64,000 nucleotides of DNA, from assembly GCA_964624115.1 (NCBI GenBank), contig CAZUXI010000001.1:35548-99547 (forward strand). Reading direction: 5' to 3'. The translations under genes were made by a program, and so were the position numbers. Of the stretch, positions 1-26,758 are shown piece by piece. Position 1 is the first letter of the stretch; each line of letters opens with the position of its first letter. The notes beneath the pieces were generated by a model. That model was not told where the DNA came from. It searched no databases and saw nothing but the letters and a program-made list of their open reading frames with translations. The DNA comes from an uncultured Candidatus Peribacteria bacterium. Lineage in GTDB: Bacteria > Patescibacteriota > Gracilibacteria > UBA1369.

Positions 1-747
1 AATTCCGTTCTTTTTTTCTTCCATGGAAACCCTTTCAATGTTAACTGTGTCACGCTCGATAACGACATCAAATGGCTTTTCTGAGTTTTTCCTAATAATG
101 GTAAGGGTCACTTTTGAACCCTTTGTTCCGCGAATTTTCATGATGGCATCAAAAAGTGTCAGTTCCGAGGTAAGATCACCGTCAATTTTATAAATAATAT
201 CTGCAGGTTGGAGTCCAGCTTTTTCTGCGGGTGAGTTTTTTAATGCAGATACCACGACAAGACTTTGATCGCGCACCGTTAATTCAGCACCAATGCCTTC
301 GAGTTGACCGTTGAGGTTTTGATCAAACTCTTTGGTCTCATCTGGATTCATGTAAACGGTATAGGGATCATTGAGGGCAGCTACCATTCCTTTTGTTGCA
401 CCATAGACCATGGTTTGGGTATCGAGGCTGTTTTCATCAATATAGCGATCGGCAAGGGTTGACCAAACCTTCCAAAAAATCTCGAGATTTGCTGGTGAAT
501 CTTTCTTTTTTTCAGGTGCGGAAATGAGCGAAGTCAGCGCGTCAACAGGGGAATTTTGCTGATAACCTTCTCCGAGTGTATCGAGTTTATATTGATAGTA
601 ACTGGCACTTTGCCAACCAAAAACAAATACGAGAACAAAAATAATTCCGTTTTTGAGAATTTTTCGTGATTGTTTATTTCCTTTTTTTTGACGAGTATTT
701 TTTTCGTTCTGTTGATGCAGATTGTTATAGGTCAGATCTTCGTTCAT
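1..747 (-). CDS. C-terminal processing (S41, Ctp/Prc-type) peptidase, N-terminal part; 3' end runs off the window
   Basis: Own minus-strand translation from ATG 747-745; the ORF is open at the window edge, so it is absent from the track. It reads MNEDLTYNNLHQQ..., then a TM segment IIFVLVFVFGW, then GQLEGIGAEL and a PDZ-like SPAEKAGLQPADIIYKIDG. Confidence 0.75.
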   Translation of the reverse strand, partial: MNEDLTYNNLHQQNEKNTRQKKGNKQSRKILKNGIIFVLVFVFGWQSASYYQYKLDTLGEGYQQNSPVDALTSLISAPEKKKDSPANLEIFWKVWSTLADRYIDENSLDTQTMVYGATKGMVAALNDPYTVYMNPDETKEFDQNLNGQLEGIGAELTVRDQSLVVVSALKNSPAEKAGLQPADIIYKIDGDLTSELTLFDAIMKIRGTKGSKVTLTIIRKNSEKPFDVVIERDTVNIERVSMEEKKNGI

Positions 748-757
748 AAGTTTTTGA

Positions 758-1558
758 TTAGTCGAACTCAGGAAGGTACTCCTGAACACGTTGGATTTTG
801 GTCGCGAGTCGAGTGTTTTCATCGATCTCGACAATTGTAGCATTAAAGACCGTTGGGCCTCCAGCCACTTCGTGTTTAATTGGGATTTGGGTGAGGAAAT
901 TTTCGATAATTGATTCGGTTTCAAGCCCAATGACTGAATTTGCGGGACCGGTAAAACCTACATCGGTTTGGTAGGCGGTTCCGTTTTCTAATATCCGTTC
1001 GTCCGCAGTGGGAACATGGGTATGAGTGCCGACAACAAAAGACACTTTTCCATCCAAGAAATGGCCAAATGCAACTTTTTCGGATGTAGCTTCGGCATGA
1101 AGATCTACAATAATTGCACTGATGTTTTCATTGGCAGTTTCTTTGAGAATTTTTTCAACCGCTTTAAAAGGACAATCAAGCTGAACAGGCATAAAAACAC
1201 GCCCCATGACATTTATTACCAGGACGCGCTGCATGAGACTCCCTTCAACAATTTTATATCCTTTTCCCGGTGCTGAGGTCGGATAATTGGCAGGACGAAT
1301 AAGGGGAAAATTTGGTTTGTCTAAAAATGGAATGATACTTCGATCTTTCCAAACGTGGTTCCCTGAAGTGAAAAAATCTACTCCTGCCGCCGTGAGTTCT
1401 TTGGTGTTGTCTTCCGTCACCCCTTTTCCGTGGTGCAGATTTTCTGCGTTGGCAATGACAAGGTGTATACCGAACTCTTTGCGGTATTTTCTCAATACTT
1501 TTTGTATTGTTTTGCGACCTGGTCGGCCAAAAATGTCACCAATAAAAAGAATGTTCAA
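758..1558 (-). CDS. ymdB: YmdB-type metallophosphoesterase (2',3'-cyclic-nucleotide phosphodiesterase family)
   Basis: ORF 758..1639 has motifs LNILFIGDIFGRPGR, ANAENLHHGKG, GNHVWK and VGTHTHVPT. The listed 5' end overlaps tRNA-Cys, so I start at the in-frame TTG at 1558. The start is uncertain. Confidence 0.8.
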   Translation of the reverse strand: MNILFIGDIFGRPGRKTIQKVLRKYRKEFGIHLVIANAENLHHGKGVTEDNTKELTAAGVDFFTSGNHVWKDRSIIPFLDKPNFPLIRPANYPTSAPGKGYKIVEGSLMQRVLVINVMGRVFMPVQLDCPFKAVEKILKETANENISAIIVDLHAEATSEKVAFGHFLDGKVSFVVGTHTHVPTADERILENGTAYQTDVGFTGPANSVIGLETESIIENFLTQIPIKHEVAGGPTVFNATIVEIDENTRLATKIQRVQEYLPEFD

Positions 1559-1909: not shown

Positions 1910-4660
1910 CTACATTTTCTCAAAAACCGTAAGCCCGAGGAGTTTTAACCCGTTACTTAAGACGACATTGACGGCATCTACAATTTTGAGACGGCTTTCA
2001 CGGAGTTCAGGATTTGAGGTATTTAAAACGCTCACATCGTTGTAGAAGGCGTTGAAAGACTTGGAAAGTTCGAAGAGATAATTGGTGATTAAGTTTGGTT
2101 TGTAGTTTTCAATCGAGTTTTGAATCACTTCAGGGAATTTTCCGAGTTCACGCAGGAGGGTTTGTTCGGTTGGATGTGAGAATGGAGCACCTGACTCAAC
2201 TTCAGTTTCAGCTTGTATTTCTGGTTCTTCTTCTTCATCCGTGAGGCTGAAGAGTGAGGTTTGGCGGTCATTTTGATTGAAGGATTTTTTAACAGTTTTT
2301 TCCTCTTTTTCAATTGGAGTTTCTTCACTTTTTCTGAGGATACTTTTGGCGCGAGCACAGGTGTATTGAATAAATGGGCAGCTGTTTCCTTCAAAGGTAA
2401 GGATTTTATCCCAGCTAAAGGTGATATTTGTCTCACGGTTTTGAGAAAGGATGCTGTATTTTATTGCTGAAATCGCGAGGTTTCCGGAGATCTGTTCCTG
2501 CTCCTCTGGGGTCAGATCTTTACTTTTTTCGTTGAGGAGTTCGGTGGCCCGTTTATGACCTTCGTTAATAAGTTCGTCGACAAGAATAATTTCACCTTTT
2601 CGAGTACTCATTTTTCCCTCTGGCATTTGCATGCGACCAAAAATGACGTGTTTCAGTTCAGTCCTTTCGTCACTCAAATGGAAAAGTTTGGCAGTTTCAA
2701 AAAGCTGATTAAAGTGTAGCGTTTGGGCAACATCTACGACATAAATGAGTTTCATCGGATGGTAACGCTTGATCCGATCTTGGATACTTGCAAGGTCACG
2801 GGTGCTGTAAAGCGTTGTTCCATCACTTTTTTGGAGAAGATAAGGCGGATATTTTTCTTCAGGAAAACTCACTATAAGCGCATTATTTTCGCCAGTTGTA
2901 ATGATTTTTTTATCTTCGCCTTCAGCTATGAGTTGCTTCGCCTGGTTCAAATACATTTGTTCACCGAGAAATTCGTCGAAATGGACACCGAGTTTGGTGT
3001 AAAGCCTCTTGAGTTCTTTGATGCTTAATTCCCTCATCCACTCCCAAAGTTTTTGATTTTCGGAATCCCCCTCTTCGAGTTTTTTGAATTCTGCACGACC
3101 TTGTTCGTCTAAGCTTGGGTCTTTTTCTGCTTCATCATGAAATTTAACATAGAGTTTGAGAAGTTCGTTGAGCGGATCCACTTGGACCTGTTCTTGATCA
3201 CCCCAATGACGATAAGCATAGATGAGTTTCCCGAACTGAGTTCCCCAATCGCCGAGGTAGTTTAATTTTGTGACTTTATAACCACCGAAGGACATCATGT
3301 CAGCTATGCTTTGCCCAATCAATGTACTTAAGAGGTGATGAACACCAAGTGGTTTGGCGATATTTGGGGATGAATATTCAACAAGGACCGTTTGATTTTG
3401 ACCAATATTCAATCGGCCGTAATTAGCACGGTAAGAGAGAATTTGTTGGAGTTCTTGTTGTAGATATTTCAGTGAGAGAGTGCAGTTAATAAAGCCAGGA
3501 CCGGCGATTTCTGTTTTCTCAATATCAGCGGTGAGTTCAAGTTTTTTGATAACCTCAGCAGCAAAGTCTTGTGGATTTTCGTTATATTTTTTGGCCAATT
3601 TCATGGCGATATTGGTCGTGTAGTCGCCGTGTGATTGATCTTTAGGAATATCAATGATGATTTCAGATTTATTTTCAAGAAGTGGGAGTCCTTTTTCACT
3701 TAATAATGTGTTGGTCGCGTTAAAAAACTTTTCTTGAAGAATTTCAGAGGTGAGTTTTGAGCTCATGACGGGTGTTTCTGTTGGATGTTCGAGAAAAGAA
3801 GGGAGTTCTTTTTCTTTTGGTACTGTTTTGACCTTTGGGGATTTTGTCGCGGCTTTTTTGTTTCCGGACTTGGTTTCGGAATTTATTTCAGGGGCGGTGA
3901 TTGCTTCTGAAACTTGAGGTGCTGATTCGGGTGATTGAGTTGGGGTTGCAGGAATCGGTGGCTCAAATGATTCAAAGAGTTCGATCTCTTCTTCTTCAAT
4001 ATCTTCGGCTGATGGTTCGGTCATTTGTTCTTGATACTCAAGCTCACGAGTTGAGGTGTATTTGAGATCGCAGTTTTGGTGATCTGCATCGAGGAGATAG
4101 TAGTCAATTTGGCTTGATTCGAGGTATTTATCAATCACTTTCGCAACTTCATCGCTCAGTAAAATGAAGTCTTCACGTGAAAGTGAGTGGATGTTAAAGA
4201 ACCAAAAGACAACGTTTTTGGTCTCTTTGGTGGCTTCAATATCCGGGGTCTTTCGGCCTTTTTTTGGCTCGAAGAGGTCAATGGTAAAGTCCTTTTCCGT
4301 GGTATCGAGATCAGCACCAAAAAGTGGAAGGATGTTTTTAAGAGAAATATAGTTGAGGAGTGAGTAGAAGTTGTTCTTTTCTTCTACATTTTTTCCTTTG
4401 GCAATTTTTTTGAGGGTTTGATCAAGAACGTAAACTTCAAGGAGTTTTTTGTTTTTGAAATCAAAACTGTCGAGCATGGCAAAAATTTTCTCTTTTTTCA
4501 CCGGGTTGGCGAGGTCGCGTTTCCGTTCGGCTTCCGCCCCTCGCAGAAGTTGGCTAATCATGGATTTCCGGCGACTGTTTTGAATATTGTGGGCAACAAT
4601 TACGCTCACATATAAGCCGGGTAACTGTTCAAATATCTCAGGACGAAGGTGAAATTTCAT
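1910..4660 (-). CDS. argS: Arginyl-tRNA synthetase fused to an N-terminal B3/B4-like (PheT-type, COG3382-like) domain through an acidic/Pro-rich linker
   Basis: ORF 1910..4720. The ArgRS core shows SSPNIAKPLGVHHL (HIGH region), MSTRKG (KMSK-like) and a DALR-type C-terminus ending FEKM. The start is taken at ATG 4660 (MKFHLRPEIFEQLPGLYVSVIVA...). Confidence 0.85.
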   Translation of the reverse strand: MKFHLRPEIFEQLPGLYVSVIVAHNIQNSRRKSMISQLLRGAEAERKRDLANPVKKEKIFAMLDSFDFKNKKLLEVYVLDQTLKKIAKGKNVEEKNNFYSLLNYISLKNILPLFGADLDTTEKDFTIDLFEPKKGRKTPDIEATKETKNVVFWFFNIHSLSREDFILLSDEVAKVIDKYLESSQIDYYLLDADHQNCDLKYTSTRELEYQEQMTEPSAEDIEEEEIELFESFEPPIPATPTQSPESAPQVSEAITAPEINSETKSGNKKAATKSPKVKTVPKEKELPSFLEHPTETPVMSSKLTSEILQEKFFNATNTLLSEKGLPLLENKSEIIIDIPKDQSHGDYTTNIAMKLAKKYNENPQDFAAEVIKKLELTADIEKTEIAGPGFINCTLSLKYLQQELQQILSYRANYGRLNIGQNQTVLVEYSSPNIAKPLGVHHLLSTLIGQSIADMMSFGGYKVTKLNYLGDWGTQFGKLIYAYRHWGDQEQVQVDPLNELLKLYVKFHDEAEKDPSLDEQGRAEFKKLEEGDSENQKLWEWMRELSIKELKRLYTKLGVHFDEFLGEQMYLNQAKQLIAEGEDKKIITTGENNALIVSFPEEKYPPYLLQKSDGTTLYSTRDLASIQDRIKRYHPMKLIYVVDVAQTLHFNQLFETAKLFHLSDERTELKHVIFGRMQMPEGKMSTRKGEIILVDELINEGHKRATELLNEKSKDLTPEEQEQISGNLAISAIKYSILSQNRETNITFSWDKILTFEGNSCPFIQYTCARAKSILRKSEETPIEKEEKTVKKSFNQNDRQTSLFSLTDEEEEPEIQAETEVESGAPFSHPTEQTLLRELGKFPEVIQNSIENYKPNLITNYLFELSKSFNAFYNDVSVLNTSNPELRESRLKIVDAVNVVLSNGLKLLGLTVFEKM

Positions 4661-7370: not shown

Positions 7371-8651
7371 TTACTCTTCGATTCGCTTGAGGTTGGCACC
7401 GAGGGCGAGGAGTTTTTCGTCGAGGTTTTCGTAGCCGCGGTCGATGTAGCGGATGTTGGTGATTTCGGTGGTGCCATCCGCACTGAGGGCGGCGATGACC
7501 ATGGCGGCGCCGGCGCGGATGTCGCAACTGGCGATGGAGGTGCCGATGAGTTCGGTTGGGCCGTGAATGGAAGCTTGGTGTGGATTGTGGATTTCAATTT
7601 TGGTGTCCATTTTTTCGAGTTCGAAGAGGTAGTTCAGACGGCCTTCAAAAAGGGTTTCAAAGATTTTGCTGGTGCCGTTGGCAAGAGCGAGGAGGACGGC
7701 AAAAGGGGCTTGGAGATCGGTGGGGAAACCCGGGTAGACACCGGTTTTGAGCATGGGGATGGGTTTGAGTTCTGAGGCTGGGTAGATGGTGACTTCTTCG
7801 GTTTTGAGATCGTATTTGACGCCAATTTCGGTGAATTTTTGCCAGAGGGCGTCGAGTTGGTTGGTTTGGATGCCTTGGATGGTGATTTGGCCTTTGGTGG
7901 CTACGGAAGCGATGGCGAGGGTTCCCGCTTCAAGGTAATCGCCGGTGACGGTGTATTCAGTGCCTTGGAGGTTTTCGGTGCCGGTGATGGTGAGGAAGTT
8001 GGTGCCGATGCCTTCAATTGTGGCGCCCATTTTGATCAGGAGGTGGCAGAGGTCTTGGACGTGGGGTTCGCAGGCGGCGAGGCGGAGGTCGGTTGAGGTG
8101 CGGTCTGAGTTGGGAGGGATAATTGCGGCGAGCATGAGGGCGTTTTCGGTGGCGGTGACACTGAGTTCAGGGAGGATAATGAGGTTGGGTTGGAGCTGTT
8201 TTTTGCGGAGGTGAAGCTGGGTTTCTTCGTCGAGGATTTCGATTCCGAGGGCACGGAAGGCTTGGGTGTGGGCGTCAACCGGGCGTTTCCCGAGAACACA
8301 GCCGCCTGGGAAAGGGATTTTGGTTTCCTGGAAATGAGTAAGAAGCGCAGGAAGAAGCAGGATTGAAGCGCGCATACTTAAAATGGCGTCCGCAGGAATG
8401 TTGGTGTTTTGGATAGTCGAAGGGTCGATTTTGGCGGTGTTGTTGGCAAATTCGACTTTCACCTTGAGGGCGCGGAAGATATCAAAGAGGAGGCGGATGT
8501 CGGCGATGTCGGGGACGTTGTGGATTATCGACGGGGTTTTTGCGAGAAGAGTAGCGCAAAGAATGGGGAGGGCAGCGTTTTTGGAACCGCTGACTTTGAC
8601 GGTGCCGCGGAGAGGGGTTGGGCCGGTGATGAGGTATTTGGGGGTGTCCAC
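7371..8651 (-). CDS. murA: UDP-N-acetylglucosamine 1-carboxyvinyltransferase
   Basis: 426 aa with a GTG start. Motifs VKVSGSKNAALPIL and the catalytic-Cys loop FPGGCVLGKRPVD, with full-length MurA architecture. The gene is visibly more GC-rich than its neighbours, and many spurious ORFs overlap it in the track. Confidence 0.9.
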   Translation of the reverse strand: MDTPKYLITGPTPLRGTVKVSGSKNAALPILCATLLAKTPSIIHNVPDIADIRLLFDIFRALKVKVEFANNTAKIDPSTIQNTNIPADAILSMRASILLLPALLTHFQETKIPFPGGCVLGKRPVDAHTQAFRALGIEILDEETQLHLRKKQLQPNLIILPELSVTATENALMLAAIIPPNSDRTSTDLRLAACEPHVQDLCHLLIKMGATIEGIGTNFLTITGTENLQGTEYTVTGDYLEAGTLAIASVATKGQITIQGIQTNQLDALWQKFTEIGVKYDLKTEEVTIYPASELKPIPMLKTGVYPGFPTDLQAPFAVLLALANGTSKIFETLFEGRLNYLFELEKMDTKIEIHNPHQASIHGPTELIGTSIASCDIRAGAAMVIAALSADGTTEITNIRYIDRGYENLDEKLLALGANLKRIEE

Positions 8652-20960: not shown

Positions 20961-21314
20961 TTATTCGGCAAAAATATCCAAATAATGTTTTAAGGTGTGA
21001 GGTGTAAGAGTAATGAGGTCACAACGCCAGGAGGGGTGAGGGATTTTGTGTGATGTATACTTGTGTTGTAGGTATTGATGAATTGCCCATGCCAGATGTT
21101 TTTTTTTACGAGGTGTCATTGACTCTTCAGGCGTCCCAAAATGTTCATTTTGACGCATTTTTACTTCCACAAAAATAAGGAAGTTTTTCTTTTGGAGAAT
21201 AAGATCGATTTCGCCACCAGGAACTCGATAGTTCTTTTTGACCAGTTGATATCCAAGATTTTGAAAATATTCCATCGCCCTTTCCTCTGCTAAAATTCCG
21301 GTAGAGTAGGACAT
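20961..21314 (-). CDS. yraN: YraN-family (UPF0102) endonuclease-like protein
   Basis: GILAEERAMEYFQNLGYQLVKKNYRVPGGEIDLILQKKNFLIFVEVKMR is the canonical YraN pattern. Confidence 0.8.
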   Translation of the reverse strand: MSYSTGILAEERAMEYFQNLGYQLVKKNYRVPGGEIDLILQKKNFLIFVEVKMRQNEHFGTPEESMTPRKKKHLAWAIHQYLQHKYTSHKIPHPSWRCDLITLTPHTLKHYLDIFAE

Positions 21315-21406
21315 AAAAAAATAAAAAAAATTAAGTGTCCAGATAAAAATAAGAGGAAAAGCTTAAAGAAAAATAAAAAAGAAGTAAAATCCGGGCGACT
21401 GAGCAA

Positions 21407-22786
21407 ATGACAGAAGAAAATATGCAAGAGACATTCAAAGTACCTCCCCATAGTCTGGAGGCCGAAAAGTCGACTCTGGGAGCCATGTTGATTGATAAAG
21501 ATGCCGTGATGAAAGTTGCGGATATCATCCAAGCGGATGATTTTTATCATTTAGCTCATGGGACCATTTTTCAGGTAATTTTTGACCTTTATGATCGACG
21601 TTCACCGATTGATCTTTTGACCGTGAATAATTTATTGGAAGATCGTGGGCAACTGGAACAGGTGGGTGGGGCTTCCTATTTGGCTGCACTTGCCAATGAA
21701 GTTCCCACGGCAAGTCATATTTTTCAATATGCTTTGATAATTAAACATAAAGCTACGTTGAGAAAACTCATTAAGGCGGGCGATACCATCACCGGTTTAG
21801 GTTATAACTCAATGGACCCGCTCGAGGAGCTCTTAGAGAATGCTGAAAAAGCTCTCTTTGGTGTTTCGCAGACTTTTTTGAAGGATCGATTTATCCATAT
21901 TAAGGAGGTGTTGAATGCAACGTATGAAAAAATAACTGAGCTTCATGATCCGGAAATGAAGGATAAGTATCGGGGCATACCGACCGGTTTTGTCGATTTG
22001 GATGGAATTCTTTCCGGCTTTCAACCGGCAGATTTGGTTATTTTGGCGGCACGGCCTTCCATGGGTAAAACGGCTTTGGCTTTGAATGTGGCCCAAAATA
22101 TTGCCCAGAAAGGTTTTAGCTGTGGAATTATTTCTTTGGAAATGTCCAAAGAGCAGTTGGTGGAACGTATGTTCTGTTCATTGCTCGAAGTGGATTCCTG
22201 GAAATTACGAACTGGGAAATTAACCGAAGAGGATTTTATGCGTATTGGAGCGGTCATGGACGAGATGTATGCTATGAAGGTTTATATTGATGATTCCGTG
22301 GGGAATTCGATTGCCGAATTGCGGGCGAAGGCAAGAAGGCTTCAGATGGAACATGGCTTAAACTTTTTGATTATTGATTACCTTCAGTTGATGAGTAGTG
22401 GAGGAAAAGGTTTTAATCAGACAAACCGGGTGCAGGAAATTTCCGAGATTTCACGGGCATTGAAGGGGTTAGCGAGGGAGTTAAAGATTCCAATTTTGGC
22501 TTTATCTCAGCTTTCACGTGCGGTGGAGTTGCGTCCAAGTAAAGTGCCACAACTTTCGGATTTGCGTGAATCTGGGGCGATTGAGCAGGACGCGGATGTG
22601 GTGATGATGATGTATCGGGAGGATTATTATGAGGAAGATACGGACCGAAAAGGGATTACGGATATTTTTGTGCGGAAGCATCGTAATGGGCCGGTAGGCC
22701 GGGTGGAGCTGGGGTTTAAGAAGGAACAGTTGAAGTTTTATAGCTTAGAACGAAATCGGAAGAGTGAAGATTATGCGATGGATTAA
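21407..22786 (+). CDS. dnaB: Replicative DNA helicase
   Basis: N-terminal PPHSLEAEKSTLGAML, Walker A ARPSMGKTALAL, IIDYLQLM, and SQLSRAVE...SDLRESGAIEQDAD. Confidence 0.95.
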   Translation: MTEENMQETFKVPPHSLEAEKSTLGAMLIDKDAVMKVADIIQADDFYHLAHGTIFQVIFDLYDRRSPIDLLTVNNLLEDRGQLEQVGGASYLAALANEVPTASHIFQYALIIKHKATLRKLIKAGDTITGLGYNSMDPLEELLENAEKALFGVSQTFLKDRFIHIKEVLNATYEKITELHDPEMKDKYRGIPTGFVDLDGILSGFQPADLVILAARPSMGKTALALNVAQNIAQKGFSCGIISLEMSKEQLVERMFCSLLEVDSWKLRTGKLTEEDFMRIGAVMDEMYAMKVYIDDSVGNSIAELRAKARRLQMEHGLNFLIIDYLQLMSSGGKGFNQTNRVQEISEISRALKGLARELKIPILALSQLSRAVELRPSKVPQLSDLRESGAIEQDADVVMMMYREDYYEEDTDRKGITDIFVRKHRNGPVGRVELGFKKEQLKFYSLERNRKSEDYAMD

Positions 22787-22946
22787 CGAGGAGGGGAAAC
22801 GAGGTTTCCCCCTCGTAGGCTCCCCCTTCCTATAAAGTCAAAAAATAAAAGGTACTTCGCTTAACTTCGCATTTTACTTTTTAGGGAACCCACAAGACCC
22901 TTAAAAGTAAAATACTACGTGCCGCTTCGTACCTTTTATTTTTTGC
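22773..22946 (+). repeat. Repeat element copy A: 20-codon ORF/hairpin module (MRWINEEGKRGFPLVGSPFL*), then a 16-bp outer stem enclosing a conserved core hairpin
   Basis: It aligns with 54952-55113. Hairpin ggggaaac/gtttcccc lies at 22793-22811. The outer stem is 22840-22855 paired with 22929-22944 (16/16). The core 22858-22925 is nearly identical to copy B. Confidence 0.8.
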
Positions 22947-23188
22947 AGGTTTCATTATTGTTGATTTATATTTGTCATTTTTTTGGTTGATTTTTCGGGA
23001 AAGTGGGCGTTATAGTGCGCGCGTTCTTTAAAAATGCCTTTTGTAGCTTTTGGTTAGCGGAAAGTTTCGGGATAAAGTCTTCTTTTTTTGGGGAAGTTTT
23101 ATGCGAGGTTTTCCGCTGGCCTCAAGTTCTGGGCTATGCCTGTGGCTCTGACAGGTTCAGAGTGTGTTGTGTTCGTGGAGGTGGTTCC

Positions 23189-23674
23189 ATGGCTGATTTG
23201 AAGGTGTTTGTGGGGCTCGTGGGGACTAAGACTGTTGTCCGTGTTGCCGAGACCGAAGTGCAGGCTCGGCAGGGGCTCGACGGGGAGCCTACGTTCTTGA
23301 TCAATGTCGAGAATGAGGGTACGAAAAAGCCTCCACCTGAGTTGGAAGGGATTCTCGACGCGATTGGGCTCTTTGGGCAAGCCACGAAAGAGGAGCTTGA
23401 AGTTGCTCTTCTTTTCATGCTGGTCTCAGGTATAGAGATTGGCTCGCGGATCCGGCTGGAGAACTTGGAAAAACCTGAGGACTTTGTCCGGGTTACCCGG
23501 AGCGTCTTCGGACTGAATCCCGTTCTCGACCAAGAGCCGACGGACCGAGCTCCTCCGGTTACCACGACCTTGCCGCCGCCGGGTCACGACGACCCGACGG
23601 ATCGCCCTCCCGTAGTCGGGGATGACCAGGACGACCCTGGCCATCCTGAGTACAAGCAGCCCAAGGGCTGCTGA
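23189..23674 (+). CDS. Orphan acidic 161-aa protein with a Pro-rich C-terminus, carried on GC-rich cassette 2
   Basis: GGAGGTG lies 6 nt before ATG 23189. The frame is coherent (MADLKVFVGLVGTKTVVRVAETEVQARQG...DDPGHPEYKQPKGC). The antisense ORFs are Ser/Arg-rich junk. A hairpin plus T-run follows the TGA stop. Confidence 0.6.
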   Translation: MADLKVFVGLVGTKTVVRVAETEVQARQGLDGEPTFLINVENEGTKKPPPELEGILDAIGLFGQATKEELEVALLFMLVSGIEIGSRIRLENLEKPEDFVRVTRSVFGLNPVLDQEPTDRAPPVTTTLPPPGHDDPTDRPPVVGDDQDDPGHPEYKQPKGC

Positions 23675-23828
23675 AGGCCACAGGCGAGAACTTCTGGGTG
23701 GTCGGTTGAGCTTTGCTCCCGGCCGCCCAGTTCGCTGTGTTTGTTTTTTTAATTTTTGTGTTTTGCGATTTGGTTTTTTTGCTGGTTTTGAGTATGCTAG
23801 CGGAGGTATTTTAGCTGTTTCTATTTTT

Positions 23829-25373
23829 ATGTCAGAACATTCAACTTCATCGTCTCTTTCGCCGTCTCAAGAGTTTGAGGAACGGAAACGAAAACTTCAG
23901 GATTTGCGGGATGCCAAAATTTCGCCTTATCCAGAGCGGTTTGAGCGGACTCATTTGACCCGGGAGGCTCGGGATTTTGCTGAAAAGAATCCGCCACGTC
24001 CTTTGGAAGATATTTTGAATGGGCCAAAAAATGAGGTTTCTTTGGCGGGTCGATTGATGTTGATGAGACCGCATGGGAAACTTACTTTTGGTCAAATTCA
24101 GGATGCGGGTGGTCGGCTTCAGATCTGTTTTATGCAGGACTTTTTGGGTGTTGATGCCTACAAAATGTTGAAAAAGATTGATATGGCGGACTTTTTGAGC
24201 GTGAAAGGAGAACTTTTTTTGACCAAACATGGAGAGATTACGGTTCTGGTCAAAGAGTATCAATTGCTTTCAAAAGCTCTTCGCCCTCTTCCGGAAAAAT
24301 TTCATGGACTCAAAGATACTGAATCCCAGTACCGTTACCGGTATTTGGATATGCTGAGTAATCCGCAAACTTATGAGCGGTTTATTGTGCGAAGTAAGCT
24401 TATTTCTGCGCTGCGGAAGTTTTTGGATAGTCATAATTTTTTGGAGATTGAAACACCGATTTTGAATACGATTGCTTCGGGGGCTATGGCAAAACCGTTT
24501 GTGACTCATCATAACGCTCTCGATTTTGATGTCTTTTTGCGGATTGCACCTGAAACTTATTTGAAACGTGCGGTGGTTGGTGGATTGGAACGAGTGTATG
24601 AGTTTGCGAAATGTTTTCGGAATGAAGGGATTGATCCTTCACACCTTCAAGAGTTTACGATGCTGGAGTTTTATGGCTCCTACTGGAACTTTGAGGACAA
24701 TATGAACTTTACGGAGAACATGATTGTGGAGGCGATTAAAGAGGTAAATGGAGGAAGTCTCCAGGTAAAATGTTTGGATCGTGATGGGAAAGAACAGCTG
24801 ATTGATTTTGCTGCGCCTTGGCCACGGGTTCAATTTGGGGAGTTGATTCGTCAGGATTGCGGGATTGATATTTTGGAATATTACAATGATGCTCCAGGTC
24901 TTTTGAAAGCGATTAAAGATAAAGGTATCAAACTTGAAAAAGCTGAAGGTCTTGGGTATGGAAATTTATGTGATGCACTCTATAAGAAGGTTTCTCGTCC
25001 AAATTTAATTCAACCAATGTTTGTGATTAAGCATCCGGTGGATACCAAACCGCTTGCACGCCGCAATGATGATGACCCTCGATTGGCTGACACTTTTCAG
25101 CTCCTGGTGAATACGTGGGAAATTGTGAATGCTTATTCTGAGCTTGTTGATCCGCTTGATCAACGGGAACGTTTGGTCAATCAAGCGTCTGCCAAGGCGG
25201 GCGGGGATGATGAAGCGATGCCGATGGATGAAGATTACCTGCTTTCCATGGAGCATGGTATGCCGCCGATGTCCGGGTTTGGAATGGGTATTGACCGATT
25301 GATGGCGCTTTTGAGTCAGCAGGATAACCTTAAAGATGTGGTCCTCTTCCCACTCATGAAACCGCAGGAGTAA
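23829..25373 (+). CDS. lysS: Lysyl-tRNA synthetase, class II
   Basis: ORF 23622..25373; the start is taken at ATG 23829 (MSEHSTSS...). It has an OB-fold N-domain, CFRNEGID (motif 2 region) and GFGMGIDRLMALL (motif 3). Confidence 0.9.
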   Translation: MSEHSTSSSLSPSQEFEERKRKLQDLRDAKISPYPERFERTHLTREARDFAEKNPPRPLEDILNGPKNEVSLAGRLMLMRPHGKLTFGQIQDAGGRLQICFMQDFLGVDAYKMLKKIDMADFLSVKGELFLTKHGEITVLVKEYQLLSKALRPLPEKFHGLKDTESQYRYRYLDMLSNPQTYERFIVRSKLISALRKFLDSHNFLEIETPILNTIASGAMAKPFVTHHNALDFDVFLRIAPETYLKRAVVGGLERVYEFAKCFRNEGIDPSHLQEFTMLEFYGSYWNFEDNMNFTENMIVEAIKEVNGGSLQVKCLDRDGKEQLIDFAAPWPRVQFGELIRQDCGIDILEYYNDAPGLLKAIKDKGIKLEKAEGLGYGNLCDALYKKVSRPNLIQPMFVIKHPVDTKPLARRNDDDPRLADTFQLLVNTWEIVNAYSELVDPLDQRERLVNQASAKAGGDDEAMPMDEDYLLSMEHGMPPMSGFGMGIDRLMALLSQQDNLKDVVLFPLMKPQE

Positions 25374-25426
25374 TCTTGTCGCATTGGAGGATCCAACGAA
25401 GGCTTTTTTTATTGTCTCTTCGAATT

Positions 25427-26758
25427 ATGCCCAAAAATATCAATATTCGCTCGTGGTACCAAAGGTATCTTTTGCTCGCACCGTTTGCGATTGTGGCGGC
25501 AGTTTTTCAGTGGCATTTTCAGCAATTTTTGCCTTTTCAATCACGATTTAAAGGACCAGAGTTTTTTGATTTTTTAAGTGTATTGGATCTGTATGTGATG
25601 GGGTTGGTTTTATTTTTTGCCGTGATTTTGGTTCAAAAAGCATTACCGCAAAAAGTAAGAAGGTTCCCTTGGGAGTTTGTTTTTGGGTTTGGACTGCTTT
25701 TGTTGGCAGGTGTTTTGGAACTCTTTTTTCAGACAGTGTATGGACCCGCCCTTACGACTCCAATACTCTACTTTCGCACGATGGTGGTTTTTCCGGTGAT
25801 TTTCTTTCTTGTTTTTTGGAGGAGTTGTGAGACTGCTACTGTTGAAAAGTTGCGACTTAGCTTTTTTGCGGCTTTGAGTTTTATGGGTGGACTTTCATTA
25901 CTTCAGTATTTTACTGGAATTTTTCCTGGGGTTATTACTGATTTTACGGCACGGCTGGTTTGGCCTTATGTGGATTTTTTGGATATGAAAGCTCAGAGTG
26001 CCAACTGGTTGGCGTTTATGATGTTACCGGGATTTATACTCAGTTTTGGGGTTTTATTTTTGGAGTATCGAAAGGGGTTACGTCGTCGTCGGACTGAGGG
26101 AGCTTGGTCAAGTTTTTCAAATTTGGGTGCGGTTATTACCTTCATTATTACTGGCTTGGTTTTGCTTTTGGTTCAATCATATGGAGCGTTTTTAGGTTTG
26201 GGGGTGGCAGTGGTGCTTTTGCTGTTTCGGAATTTGCCGTTCAAAAAGTTTTTGGTGGCGTTTGGGATTCTGATTGTTTTGGGTGGAGGATATTTTTGGT
26301 ATCAAAAGGATTCAGCAAAGTACAAGATTATTACCAATGAAGTTACCCATAAGTATGTGAACTCGATTGATGCACGCGGGGATATTTGGAAAATGAACAT
26401 GGCAATTGTTCAGAAGAATTGGGTCTTGGGTGTAGGCCTCAATCAGTATCAAAATTATTTTCGATTGTTTCATCAGGAGGTTCTGGGGAAAACTTTTTTG
26501 GAACAGCATATTCCGCCCCATCCGCATAATTTCTTTTTGGGTTTTTGGCTAAATTTGGGCATTTTTGGGTTGGTAGGGATTCTGGTTATTTTAGGCGGTA
26601 TGTTCTATCGATTTGCCTTAGAAAAGCAGAATCTGGCGATGTTTGTGATGATTGGTATTTTGCTCCATGGCATGGTGGATATTTATTATTGGAAGCAAGA
26701 GATTGTCTATGTGTTTTGGTTGGTGATTTTGTTTGCCTATTTAAGGCCAAAACATTAA
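25427..26758 (+). CDS. O-antigen ligase/Wzy_C-like polytopic membrane protein
   Basis: It has more than 10 TM helices and a periplasmic-loop pattern (RGDIWKMNMAIVQKNWVLGVGLNQYQNYF). The start is at ATG 25427. Confidence 0.6.
   Translation: MPKNINIRSWYQRYLLLAPFAIVAAVFQWHFQQFLPFQSRFKGPEFFDFLSVLDLYVMGLVLFFAVILVQKALPQKVRRFPWEFVFGFGLLLLAGVLELFFQTVYGPALTTPILYFRTMVVFPVIFFLVFWRSCETATVEKLRLSFFAALSFMGGLSLLQYFTGIFPGVITDFTARLVWPYVDFLDMKAQSANWLAFMMLPGFILSFGVLFLEYRKGLRRRRTEGAWSSFSNLGAVITFIITGLVLLLVQSYGAFLGLGVAVVLLLFRNLPFKKFLVAFGILIVLGGGYFWYQKDSAKYKIITNEVTHKYVNSIDARGDIWKMNMAIVQKNWVLGVGLNQYQNYFRLFHQEVLGKTFLEQHIPPHPHNFFLGFWLNLGIFGLVGILVILGGMFYRFALEKQNLAMFVMIGILLHGMVDIYYWKQEIVYVFWLVILFAYLRPKH

What the first reader, a model, noticed from the sequence alone, without database searches (positions are those of the whole stretch)
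23100..23745. GC-rich cassette 2: a 161-aa acidic orphan inserted between dnaB and lysS
Two core housekeeping genes are separated by about 1 kb. That gap holds element copy A, an AT-rich promoter-like stretch (ttgatt-17-tatagt near 23003-23033), and then a GC-rich segment.

The segment has a perfect GGAGGTG SD, a 161-aa ORF (MADLKVF...) and a hairpin plus T-run terminator (gggtggtcgg...ccggccgccc...tttgttttttt, about 23697-23750). The protein has an acidic helical core and a Pro/Asp-rich tail (PPVTTTLPPPGHDDPTDRPPVVGDDQDDPGHPEY). I recognise no family. The supplied long lysS ORF (from 23622) is an artefact of this stop-poor DNA.
Basis: seen in the sequence. Interest (0 to 1): 0.6.

Follow-up and report, generated by a model that had tools for sequence, protein, structure and literature searches.

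The report
GC-rich orphan gene cassette, CPR chromosome
Between two housekeeping genes of an uncultured ultra-small (Peregrinibacteria-type) bacterium sits a real, self-contained gene for a small acidic protein that matches nothing known; its GC-rich DNA and classic ribosome-binding site set it apart from a genome that hardly uses such sites, so it was probably imported, and its function is unknown.

Summary
Window 23189-23674 (+) is a 161-codon ORF at 58% GC in a 41.6% GC genome (top 0.8% of windows). It has strong codon periodicity (p=1e-9), a GGAGGTG Shine-Dalgarno site 5 nt before the ATG, a sigma-70-like promoter (22987-23016, not 23003-23033) and a strong hairpin plus T-run terminator.

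Two independent public assemblies cover its junctions, so it is not a chimera. The emptiest relatives have only 61-76 nt between dnaB and lysS. Others carry unrelated orphan ORFs there.

The protein matches nothing in about 15 billion proteins, Pfam, PHROGs, NCBIfam, PADLOC, PDB, phages or plasmids, and structure prediction failed.

New here: the backbone is almost free of Shine-Dalgarno sites (0.2-1.4% of 1037 ORFs), whereas 10 of 13 GC-rich genes have strong ones. One of those, a Kup transporter, is clearly imported. Cassette 2's codon usage lies between native and high-GC, which suggests an older import.

A second strain has a 683-nt block (-10 box to terminator) identical to the window, bracketed by two hypervariable patches. 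This is unexplained.

Function is unknown. The only lead is a weak RuvA-like helix-hairpin-helix segment.

Best reading: a moron-like chromosomal orphan cassette.

The parts
22790..22955 (+). Hairpin repeat element, copy A. It has a small GC hairpin and then a 48-nt-arm hairpin ending in a T-run. It starts on the dnaB stop codon and probably acts as the dnaB terminator.
   Evidence: Inverted repeat I1. The genome holds 6 full copies and 1 partial copy, with compensatory outer-stem swaps between copies.
22987..23016 (+). Sigma-70-like promoter, TTGATT-18-TATAGT.
   Evidence: It matches 9 of 12 consensus positions. Both hexamers and the spacer length are kept in the second strain (L013), while the spacer sequence changes.
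23022..23188 (+). Inferred 5' leader of about 165 nt. It holds a long hairpin (23047-23126), a terminator-like hairpin (23145-23163, followed by GTGTTGTGTT) and a weak hairpin that pairs the SD with the AUG.
   Evidence: It folds at -61.7 kcal/mol, z = -4.0. It shows no codon periodicity. It is 100% identical in L013. Rfam gives no match.
23177..23183 (+). Shine-Dalgarno site GGAGGTG, 5 nt before the ATG.
   Evidence: Read directly from the sequence. The 16S 3' end carries CCTCC. Such sites precede only 0.2-1.4% of backbone ORFs.
23189..23674 (+). orf161 (P0001): a soluble acidic protein of 17.5 kDa. Residues 1-115 form a likely alpha/beta domain. Residues 116-161 form a Pro/Asp-rich tail of two imperfect 19-20-aa repeats.
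   Evidence: There is no homologue anywhere.
23357..23491 (+). Codons 57-101: a weak RuvA-like segment (acidic pin, LYGF, first helix-hairpin-helix, with a 2-residue insertion in the GIG turn).
   Evidence: blastp against the genome's own RuvA gives 18 of 45 identities. An HMM of 30 RuvA sequences gives 10.3 bits, and 0 of 2000 shuffles reach it. The proteome-wide E-value is 0.037, rank 4. hhalign gives P = 3.5e-5, probability 72%, local only.
23679..23750 (+). Intrinsic terminator: a nested GC-rich hairpin followed by TGTGTTTGTTTTTTT.
   Evidence: It folds at -37.4 kcal/mol, z = -4.8. In L013 a stem G-U pair becomes A-U.
23693..23809 (.). Downstream hypervariable patch between strains (about 22 differences in 117 nt). 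Its upstream counterpart lies at 22971-23009.
   Evidence: The background between strains is 0-0.25%.
23829..25373 (+). lysS with its true start (MSEHSTSS...). It is not part of the cassette and marks its right-hand border.
   Evidence: Relatives align from residue 19 onward and are 507-524 aa long.

Best explanation
This is a real, lineage-specific, autonomous single-gene transcription unit that works like a phage moron but sits in a bacterial chromosome.

Anatomy (shown):
- A sigma-70-type promoter at 22987-23016 starts an mRNA with a structured leader of about 165 nt.
- A canonical SD recruits ribosomes to a 161-codon ORF.
- A strong intrinsic terminator insulates lysS, which restarts from its own signals.

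Origin (inferred, about 60-65%):
- The unit was added to a dnaB-lysS spacer that is only 61-76 nt long in the emptiest relatives.
- That spacer is a recurrent landing place for unrelated orphan genes in this family.
- The unit belongs to this genome's small class of GC-rich, SD-led genes, which stand apart from a 42% GC, essentially SD-less backbone.
- It most likely came by horizontal transfer from a GC-richer, SD-using donor. This happened long enough ago for its synonymous sites to move halfway to the host's G/T-skewed pattern.

Product and function:
- The product is a cytoplasmic, acidic protein (pI 4.5) of 17.5 kDa, with a domain of about 115 aa and a disordered Pro/Asp tail.
- My committed but weak guess (about 15-20%) is that it acts by binding a partner rather than by catalysis. 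It could be a decoy or modulator of DNA-processing proteins, through a degenerate RuvA-like helix-hairpin-helix segment and an acidic, DNA-mimicking tail.
For: That the gene is real:
- Period-3 composition has p = 1e-9 in the ORF and is absent in the leader.
- G at codon position 1 is 0.42.
- The SD sits 5 nt before the ATG, and the terminator's outer stem begins 4 nt after the stop.
- The promoter hexamers are conserved in a second strain while the spacer varies.

That it is not a chimera:
- L013 (SRR26721176) spans 22971-23890.
- L120 (SRR13208906) spans 23288-25599 at 100% identity.

That it is an addition:
- The dnaB-lysS spacer is 76 nt in G009 and 61 nt in G026.
- G010, G007 and G018 carry unrelated ORFs of 126, 313 and 184 aa there. 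These match their own genomes' composition, and the two on the dnaB strand (G010, G007) lack an SD.

That it is an orphan.

Class membership and import:
- GC1 of 0.70 is the highest of 1144 ORFs and GC3 is at the 98.6th percentile.
- A strong SD precedes 0.2-1.4% of 1037 backbone ORFs but 10 of 13 GC-rich genes, and the 16S rRNA keeps CCTCC.
- The GC-rich, SD-led Kup gene is absent from 30 relatives. Its nearest homologues (41-52% identity) are in high-GC taxa.

Partial amelioration.

Function lead.
Against:
- No donor or homologue exists, so import is inferred only from composition, the SD and analogy with Kup.
- The synonymous-site G/T skew equals that of the native neighbours, and Pro-rich tracts are common in this organism's native large proteins. 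Both fit a native, fast-evolving gene equally well.
- ORF length alone is only p = 0.035.
- Zero substitutions between the two strains give no dN/dS test.
- The RuvA similarity is local. It is not significant database-wide (no Pfam hit), the N-terminal 56 residues show none, and both AlphaFold models are poor (pLDDT 52 and 41), with no fold match.
Confidence: 0.55

Rival explanations
1. It is a native, fast-evolving, lineage-specific gene, never imported. Its GC-richness comes from its amino-acid make-up (Gly, Val, Glu, Asp, Pro) and the local G-rich strand bias. It may be held GC-rich and SD-led by selection, as a separately translated class of genes.
For: - Four-fold sites (G .38, T .30) resemble dnaB and lysS.
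- The N-terminal part slightly prefers native codons.
- Pro-rich linkers are native to this organism.
- Earlier AI notes report similar cassettes that stay GC-rich over long times in other CPR lineages (unverified).
Against: - There is no orthologue in 205 genomes of the order.
- The slot ORFs of relatives are unrelated, AT-rich and (where on the dnaB strand) SD-less.
- Codon usage lies 8.5 SD below the native leading-strand class.
- The same GC-rich plus SD signature marks a demonstrably imported Kup gene.
Confidence: 0.2
2. It is a decaying remnant of foreign DNA. The open frame survives because GC-rich DNA has few stop codons, and no functional protein is made.
For: - ORF length alone is weak evidence (p = 0.035).
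- The antisense strand also has 143- and 93-aa ORFs.
- There are no homologues, and predicted structure confidence is poor.
Against: - Codon periodicity is strong and in phase with the ORF, and it stops at the ATG.
- The SD-ATG spacing is exact, and the terminator abuts the stop codon.
- The promoter hexamers are conserved while their spacer drifts.
- The unit is kept intact in two strains.
Confidence: 0.1
3. It is one unit of a dedicated gene-capture or exchange system in which the 170-nt hairpin element, or the promoter and terminator modules, serve as recombination anchors. This would resemble T4-phage PeSL cassettes or integron attC sites.
For: - Four of 7 hairpin-element copies lie within 150 nt of a GC-rich island, against 4.1% of the genome (binomial about 1e-4).
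- In a second strain a 683-nt block running exactly from the -10 box to the terminator is identical, while both control patches differ by 19-33%. The strain background is at most 0.25%.
- PeSL precedent: PMC2839356.
Against: - The geometry of element and GC gene is inconsistent among the four cases.
- The 13 GC-rich genes share no boundary motif.
- The genome has a single tyrosine recombinase, 40 kb away.
- Other GC-rich cassettes are invariant across 7 samples.
- Only one variant contig exists.
Confidence: 0.08
4. It is an assembly or binning chimera that joins GC-rich DNA from another organism into the contig.
For: There is an abrupt composition change, and a repeat element lies next to it.
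Against: - Two independent Logan assemblies from different runs cross the junctions.
- The leader hairpin spans the composition boundary.
- The contig is 364 kb long and the genome shows 0.5% contamination.
Confidence: 0.02

Closest known systems
Phage 'morons' (HK97/HK022 type; definition in PMC3594210)
   Same: It is extra DNA between two conserved genes, relative to relatives. It has its own promoter and its own terminator. Its GC content differs from its neighbours. It is a single gene of unknown function.
   Different: It sits in a bacterial chromosome between dnaB and lysS, with no phage genes nearby. It matches no PHROG family or phage record. It also differs from the backbone in how translation starts: it is SD-led in an SD-less genome.
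PeSL regulatory cassettes of T4-type phages (PMC2839356)
   Same: An orphan gene is bracketed by a stem-loop terminator and a sigma-70 promoter. Between strains, the variation is concentrated at those control modules.
   Different: No repeated promoter-stem-loop consensus flanks the GC-rich genes here. No mini-circles or module exchange have been shown. This is a cellular genome.
Integron gene cassettes
   Same: It is a single promoter-proximal ORF unit added at an intergenic site, and orphans of this kind are frequent.
   Different: It has its own promoter and terminator. No attC-like shared site was found. There is no integron integrase, only one Xer-like tyrosine recombinase 40 kb away.
Horizontally acquired genomic islands of Patescibacteria (Gios et al. 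2025, PMC12455944)
   Same: It is compositionally deviant DNA in a streamlined CPR genome, and such a survey would count it as HGT.
   Different: It is a sub-kilobase single-gene unit with no mobility genes and no identifiable donor. That paper does not contain the term 'Shine-Dalgarno' (0 occurrences).
RuvA (Holliday-junction binding protein), junction of domains I and II
   Same: Residues 57-101 align with RuvA 55-97 (acidic pin, LYGF, first HhH) at the same distance from the N-terminus. Identity to the genome's own RuvA is 40%.
   Different: There is no detectable OB-fold domain I. The GIG turn is broken by a 2-residue insertion. There is no second HhH and no domain III. A Pro/Asp tail stands in their place. 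There is no Pfam hit.

Membership tests
Phage moron | Extra DNA between genes that are adjacent in relatives | tested here: met
   The dnaB-lysS spacer is 76 nt in G009 and 61 nt in G026, against 1039 nt here.
Phage moron | Own promoter and own terminator (an independent transcription unit) | tested here: met
   Met at sequence level only. The promoter matches 9 of 12 positions and its hexamers are conserved in L013. The terminator folds at -37.4 kcal/mol, z = -4.8, and is followed by a T-run.
Phage moron | Composition differs from that of neighbouring genes | tested here: met
   GC is 58% against 42%, z = +3.8. Codon usage is 8.5 SD from the native class.
Phage moron | Resides in a phage or prophage genome | tested here: not met
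   The neighbours are dnaB, lysS, a YraN-like gene and a membrane protein. There is no PHROG, viral-contig or phage-record match.
Integron cassette | attC recombination site at the 3' end, shared among cassettes | tested here: not met
   All-against-all comparison of the flanks of 13 GC-rich genes found no shared motif apart from the hairpin element next to some of them. No attC covariance model was run.
Integron cassette | Integron integrase with attI and a Pc platform nearby; the cassette itself has no promoter | tested here: not met
   The genome has one PF00589 gene, at C1:17002, 40 kb away. The cassette has its own promoter.
RuvA family | N-terminal OB-fold domain I (Pfam RuvA_N) | tested here: not met
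   Residues 1-56 score -0.8 bits against an HMM of 30 RuvA sequences, and 11% of shuffles do as well. There is no Pfam hit at E <= 10.
RuvA family | Two helix-hairpin-helix motifs (domain II) | tested here: inconclusive
   There is one degenerate motif with a 2-residue insertion. The HMM gives 10.3 bits, 0 of 2000 shuffles reach it, and the proteome-wide E-value is 0.037. hhalign probability is 72%.
RuvA family | C-terminal RuvB-binding domain III | tested here: not met
   The alignment ends at RuvA position 97. The C-terminus is a Pro/Asp repeat tail.
Known anti-phage defence or toxin-antitoxin proteins | Match to a PADLOC, Pfam or NCBIfam model | tested here: not met
   No family at E <= 10 in any of the three libraries.

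The most novel reading that the evidence does not exclude
Cassette 2 is one instance of a CPR-wide, undescribed second gene compartment. In this reading, GC-rich, Shine-Dalgarno-led orphan genes are translated by a different initiation route from the SD-less backbone. They are exchanged between strains as precise units. The observed identical block, from the -10 box to the terminator and flanked by hypervariable control patches, would be the footprint of such an exchange. The hairpin repeat and the promoter and terminator modules would act as recombination anchors without a dedicated integrase.
Probability: 0.12. Interest if true: 0.75.

Novelty: new variant of a known kind. Interest (0 to 1): 0.4.

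Why it matters
Taken alone, this is one more orphan gene. Three things make it worth keeping on file.

1. It shows that in this Peregrinibacteria-type genome a canonical Shine-Dalgarno site is almost diagnostic of a small GC-rich gene class. At least one member of that class (Kup) is clearly imported. This gives a simple, testable marker for gene acquisition in CPR bacteria, whose hosts and gene donors are mostly unknown.

2. The dnaB-lysS spacer is a recurrent slot for unrelated orphan genes across genera. This bears on how streamlined genomes gain new genes.

3. The strain comparison is not what ordinary drift predicts. The transcribed block is identical, the control patches on both sides are hypervariable, and the population is otherwise nearly clonal. 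This could expose a recombination or regulatory-variation process.

If the protein really mimics part of RuvA, it would be a candidate modulator of recombination.

Tried and rejected
Homology searches that found nothing:
- Pfam, PHROGs, NCBIfam, PADLOC and PDB sequences.
- 5.8 billion clustered proteins and 1.84 billion representatives.
- Six-frame search of 205 genomes of the order.
- Metagenome, viral and genome contig scans.
- Phage and plasmid records.
- The genome's own DNA and proteins.

Structure: AlphaFold2 on the full protein gave pLDDT 52 and on residues 1-118 gave 41. Foldseek against the PDB found nothing at E <= 0.001.

Alternative products:
- Rfam on 22700-23900 gave only a chance miRNA-family hit inside the hairpin element.
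- The long 223-aa frame from GTG 23003 (ATG in L013) is rejected. It has no codon periodicity in the leader, and the -10 box lies downstream of that start.
- The antisense 143-aa ORF is rejected. Its Ser/Thr/Arg-rich translation looks like the mirror frame of an acidic protein, its G at codon position 1 is only 0.27 against 0.42 for the sense frame, and no family matches it.

Orthology and boundaries:
- Orthology with the slot ORFs of relatives is rejected, because there is no similarity.
- A shared boundary motif among GC-rich genes was not found. The 21-nt imperfect direct repeat at 23113 and 23678 (71% identity) is treated as chance.
- Extending the RuvA similarity to the N-terminus failed.

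Strain data:
- Exact-protein look-ups meant to recover more of the variant strain returned only clonal contigs or nothing.

Full report
WHAT IS THERE

The window comes from contig C1 (364 kb) of a 1.43-Mb, 12-contig genome at 41.6% GC, 98.7% complete. Earlier notes of this scan, and the names on related LysS proteins, place it among Peregrinibacteria-type CPR bacteria.

- dnaB ends at 22789 and lysS starts at 23829, so the gap is 1039 nt.
- The gap opens with a hairpin repeat element of about 165 nt (22790-22955).
- Next comes a sigma-70-like promoter, TTGATT-18-TATAGT, at 22987-23016.
- A leader of about 165 nt follows. It folds at -61.7 kcal/mol (z = -4.0) and contains a long hairpin (23047-23126), a terminator-like hairpin (23145-23163) and a weak hairpin that pairs the SD with the AUG.
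- GGAGGTG lies at 23177-23183, 5 nt before the ATG.
- The 161-codon ORF runs from 23189 to 23674.
- A nested hairpin at 23679-23739 (-37.4 kcal/mol, z = -4.8) is followed by a T-run.

IS IT MORE THAN CHANCE, AND IS IT CODING?

- The ORF is 58.4% GC, z = +3.8, in the top 0.8% of genome windows.
- ORF length alone is weak evidence: 70 of 2000 dinucleotide shuffles give an ORF as long.
- Base composition by codon position is strongly periodic: GC1/2/3 = 0.70/0.40/0.65, G at position 1 = 0.42, chi-square p = 1e-9.
- The upstream leader, read in the same frame, shows no periodicity (p = 0.27).
- With the exact SD spacing and a terminator that abuts the stop codon, I put protein-coding at about 85%.
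- The leader result also rejects the 223-aa frame from 23003.

IS IT AN ASSEMBLY ARTEFACT?

No.
- Logan contig L013 (SRR26721176, 916 nt) spans 22971-23890, covering both composition boundaries and the lysS start.
- Logan contig L120 (SRR13208906) equals 23288-25599 at 100% identity.
- L039 equals 21304-22860.

COMPARISON WITH RELATIVES

- No genome of the same genus is held. The nearest DnaB proteins are 79-80% identical.
- In relatives where dnaB and lysS are co-directional neighbours, the spacer is 76 nt (G009) or 61 nt (G026).
- In G010 it is about 500 nt with a 126-aa ORF. In G018 it is about 675 nt with a 184-aa ORF on the other strand. In G007 it is about 1150 nt with a 313-aa ORF.
- These slot ORFs are unrelated to each other and to orf161, and they have no Pfam family.
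- They match their own genomes' composition. Those of G010 and G007, on the dnaB strand, have their own promoters and no SD.
- In more distant family members dnaB and lysS are convergent.
- So the slot turns over quickly. Cassette 2 is the only GC-rich, SD-led occupant seen.
- The relatives' LysS N-termini confirm the start at 23829. The NCBI (583 aa) and Logan (555 aa) calls run back through the terminator into orf161.

THE PROTEIN

- It is 17.5 kDa with pI 4.5 and no membrane span. The maximum 19-residue Kyte-Doolittle hydropathy is 1.56, in a segment that contains charged residues.
- Low-confidence models give beta-beta-beta-alpha-alpha-alpha up to about residue 110, then disorder.
- The tail (116-161) is two imperfect 19-20-residue repeats: EPTDRAPPV...PGHD and DPTDRPPVV...PGHPE.
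- Every homology search returned only the protein itself.

The single lead is a RuvA-like segment.
- The weak six-frame hits in three relatives, and the best non-self hit in the genome itself, all fall on RuvA.
- Residues 57-101 align with RuvA 55-97 (acidic pin, LYGF, first helix-hairpin-helix). There are 18 of 45 identities to the genome's own RuvA.
- An HMM of 30 RuvA sequences gives 10.3 bits, 0 of 2000 composition-matched shuffles reach it, and the proteome-wide E-value is 0.037 at rank 4.
- hhalign gives P = 3.5e-5 and probability 72%, but only locally.
- The first 56 residues show no RuvA signal, the GIG turn carries a 2-residue insertion, and Pfam sees nothing.
- I rate true homology at about 20-25%.

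FOREIGN OR NATIVE?

For import:
- GC1 is the highest of 1144 ORFs and GC3 is at the 98.6th percentile.
- The synonymous-codon log-likelihood (native versus high-GC class) is -0.07 per codon. Native leading-strand genes score +0.78 +/- 0.10 and the GC3 > 0.75 class scores -0.73 +/- 0.15.
- A new and independent marker is translation initiation. The 16S rRNA keeps CCTCC.
- Yet GGAGG or AGGAG precedes only 0.2% of first starts among 1037 backbone ORFs, and 1.4% if any start in the first 30 codons is counted. G is depleted from -20 to -1.
- By inspection, 10 of 13 GC-rich genes have a strong, well-spaced SD.
- One of these, a Kup K+ transporter (GC3 0.86), is absent from all 30 relatives. Its nearest homologues are only 41-52% identical and lie in high-GC taxa: Rhodocyclales, Actinomycetota, Sphingomonas.
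- So in this genome the combination of GC-rich DNA and an SD marks at least some true imports.
- Six of 7 other GC-rich single genes tested have no Pfam family.

Against a recent import:
- The four-fold sites of orf161 (G .38, T .30, C .27, A .06) carry the same G/T strand skew as dnaB and lysS. Cassettes 1 and 3 are C3-rich whatever their strand.
- Pro-rich tracts are common in native large proteins of this organism.

My reading is an older import, partly ameliorated (about 60-65%). A native fast-evolving gene is the main rival (about 20%).

STRAIN COMPARISON (UNEXPLAINED)

- The organism is nearly clonal across many public runs. Identity is 99.76-100%, and 5 of the 8 distinct differences seen fall at third codon positions.
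- L013, by contrast, differs from the window at 25 mismatches plus 4 gap positions. All of them lie in two patches: 22971-23009 (the promoter spacer) and 23693-23809 (terminator flank to lysS leader).
- The 683 nt from 23010 to 23692 (the -10 box, leader, ORF and 18 nt more) and the next 81 nt (23810-23890) are identical.
- Within the patches, the -35 and -10 hexamers, the spacer length, the core terminator stem (one G-U pair becomes A-U) and the T-run are kept.
- Either the control patches are hypervariable, or the transcribed block was recently exchanged between lineages. One 916-nt contig cannot decide between these.

THE HAIRPIN ELEMENT

- An HMM search finds 6 full copies and 1 partial copy, with compensatory outer-stem swaps.
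- Four copies lie within 150 nt of a GC-rich island, although only 4.1% of the genome is that close to one (binomial about 1e-4).
- The relative position and orientation of element and GC gene differ among the four cases.
- No other boundary motif is shared, and the genome has one tyrosine recombinase, 40 kb away.
- Here the element begins on the dnaB stop codon and ends in a T-run, so the simplest role is a dnaB terminator.
- I give a dedicated capture mechanism about 8%.

COMPARISON WITH WHAT IS KNOWN

- The unit fits the published description of a phage moron: extra DNA, its own promoter and terminator, deviant GC (PMC3594210). It fails on phage context, so it works like a moron but is not one.
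- PeSL cassettes of T4-type phages (PMC2839356) are the closest precedent for orphan genes bracketed by promoter and stem-loop modules where variation concentrates. No repeated module consensus exists here.
- Surveys of Patescibacteria would count such DNA as HGT islands (PMC12455944).
- Earlier AI notes of this scan describe similar GC-rich, SD-led orphan cassettes in several other CPR lineages. I treated that as a lead, and I tested the SD contrast in this genome myself.

LIMITS

- My gene set is a greedy longest-ORF set, so start sites are approximate. The 'any start' figure bounds that error.

VERDICT

This is a real, moron-like, lineage-specific orphan cassette. It was probably imported some time ago, and its function is unknown. 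Interest is moderate. It rests mainly on the SD-led versus SD-less contrast and on the odd strain pattern.

Noticed in passing
whole genome (G000); upstream regions of 1144 ORFs: The backbone is essentially free of Shine-Dalgarno sites. GGAGG or AGGAG precedes 0.2% of first starts, and G is depleted to 3-14% from -20 to -1. Yet the 16S 3' end keeps CCTCC (C8, near position 93). Strong SDs are concentrated in the few GC-rich genes, 10 of 13 by inspection.
   Followed up: partly
window 22971-23009 and 23693-23809, against L013: Two hypervariable patches (about 33% and 19% different) bracket a 683-nt block that is identical between two strains. The population is otherwise 99.76-100% identical.
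   Followed up: partly
window 22790-22955; G000 C1:90502-90671, C2:171256-171423, C2:134086-134286, C6:55042-55208, C3:226871-227038, C3:269354-269404: The 170-nt hairpin element has 6 full copies and 1 partial copy. Four lie within 150 nt of a GC-rich island, where 4.1% would be expected (p about 1e-4), but the geometry is not consistent.
   Followed up: partly
G000 C2:316951-326150: A cluster of GC-rich (GC3 0.83-0.88) transporter-like genes: one resembling a cation/H+ antiporter, one resembling TrkH, and a Kup homologue (the first two named by eye only). Kup is absent from 30 relatives, and its nearest homologues (41-52% identity) are in Rhodocyclales, Actinomycetota and Sphingomonas.
   Followed up: partly
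window 7371-8651 (-), murA: This housekeeping gene has an extreme third-position bias (C3 0.61, G3 0.07, GC3 0.67), which produces a 54-55% GC island. High GC3 alone is therefore not proof of foreign origin in this genome.
   Followed up: no
window 23622-25373 and 23706-25373: The public annotations of lysS are over-extended (583 aa in NCBI, 555 aa in Logan). They run through the cassette terminator and overlap orf161. Relatives support the start at 23829.
   Followed up: yes
L004 (G010) 2932-3312; L003 (G007) 484-1425 (-); L006 (G018) 935-1489: Relatives carry unrelated, Pfam-less orphan ORFs in the same dnaB-lysS slot. Those of G010 and G007 follow near-consensus sigma-70 promoters placed directly after dnaB.
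   Followed up: partly
window 23835-23808 (-): A promoter-like site (CTGACA-16-TAAAAT, 10 of 12) lies on the minus strand at the lysS start and points back into the cassette. It could drive antisense transcription.
   Followed up: no
window 23813-23817: The GGAGG located 11 nt before the lysS ATG reads GAAGG in the second strain, so it is probably not a functional SD.
   Followed up: no
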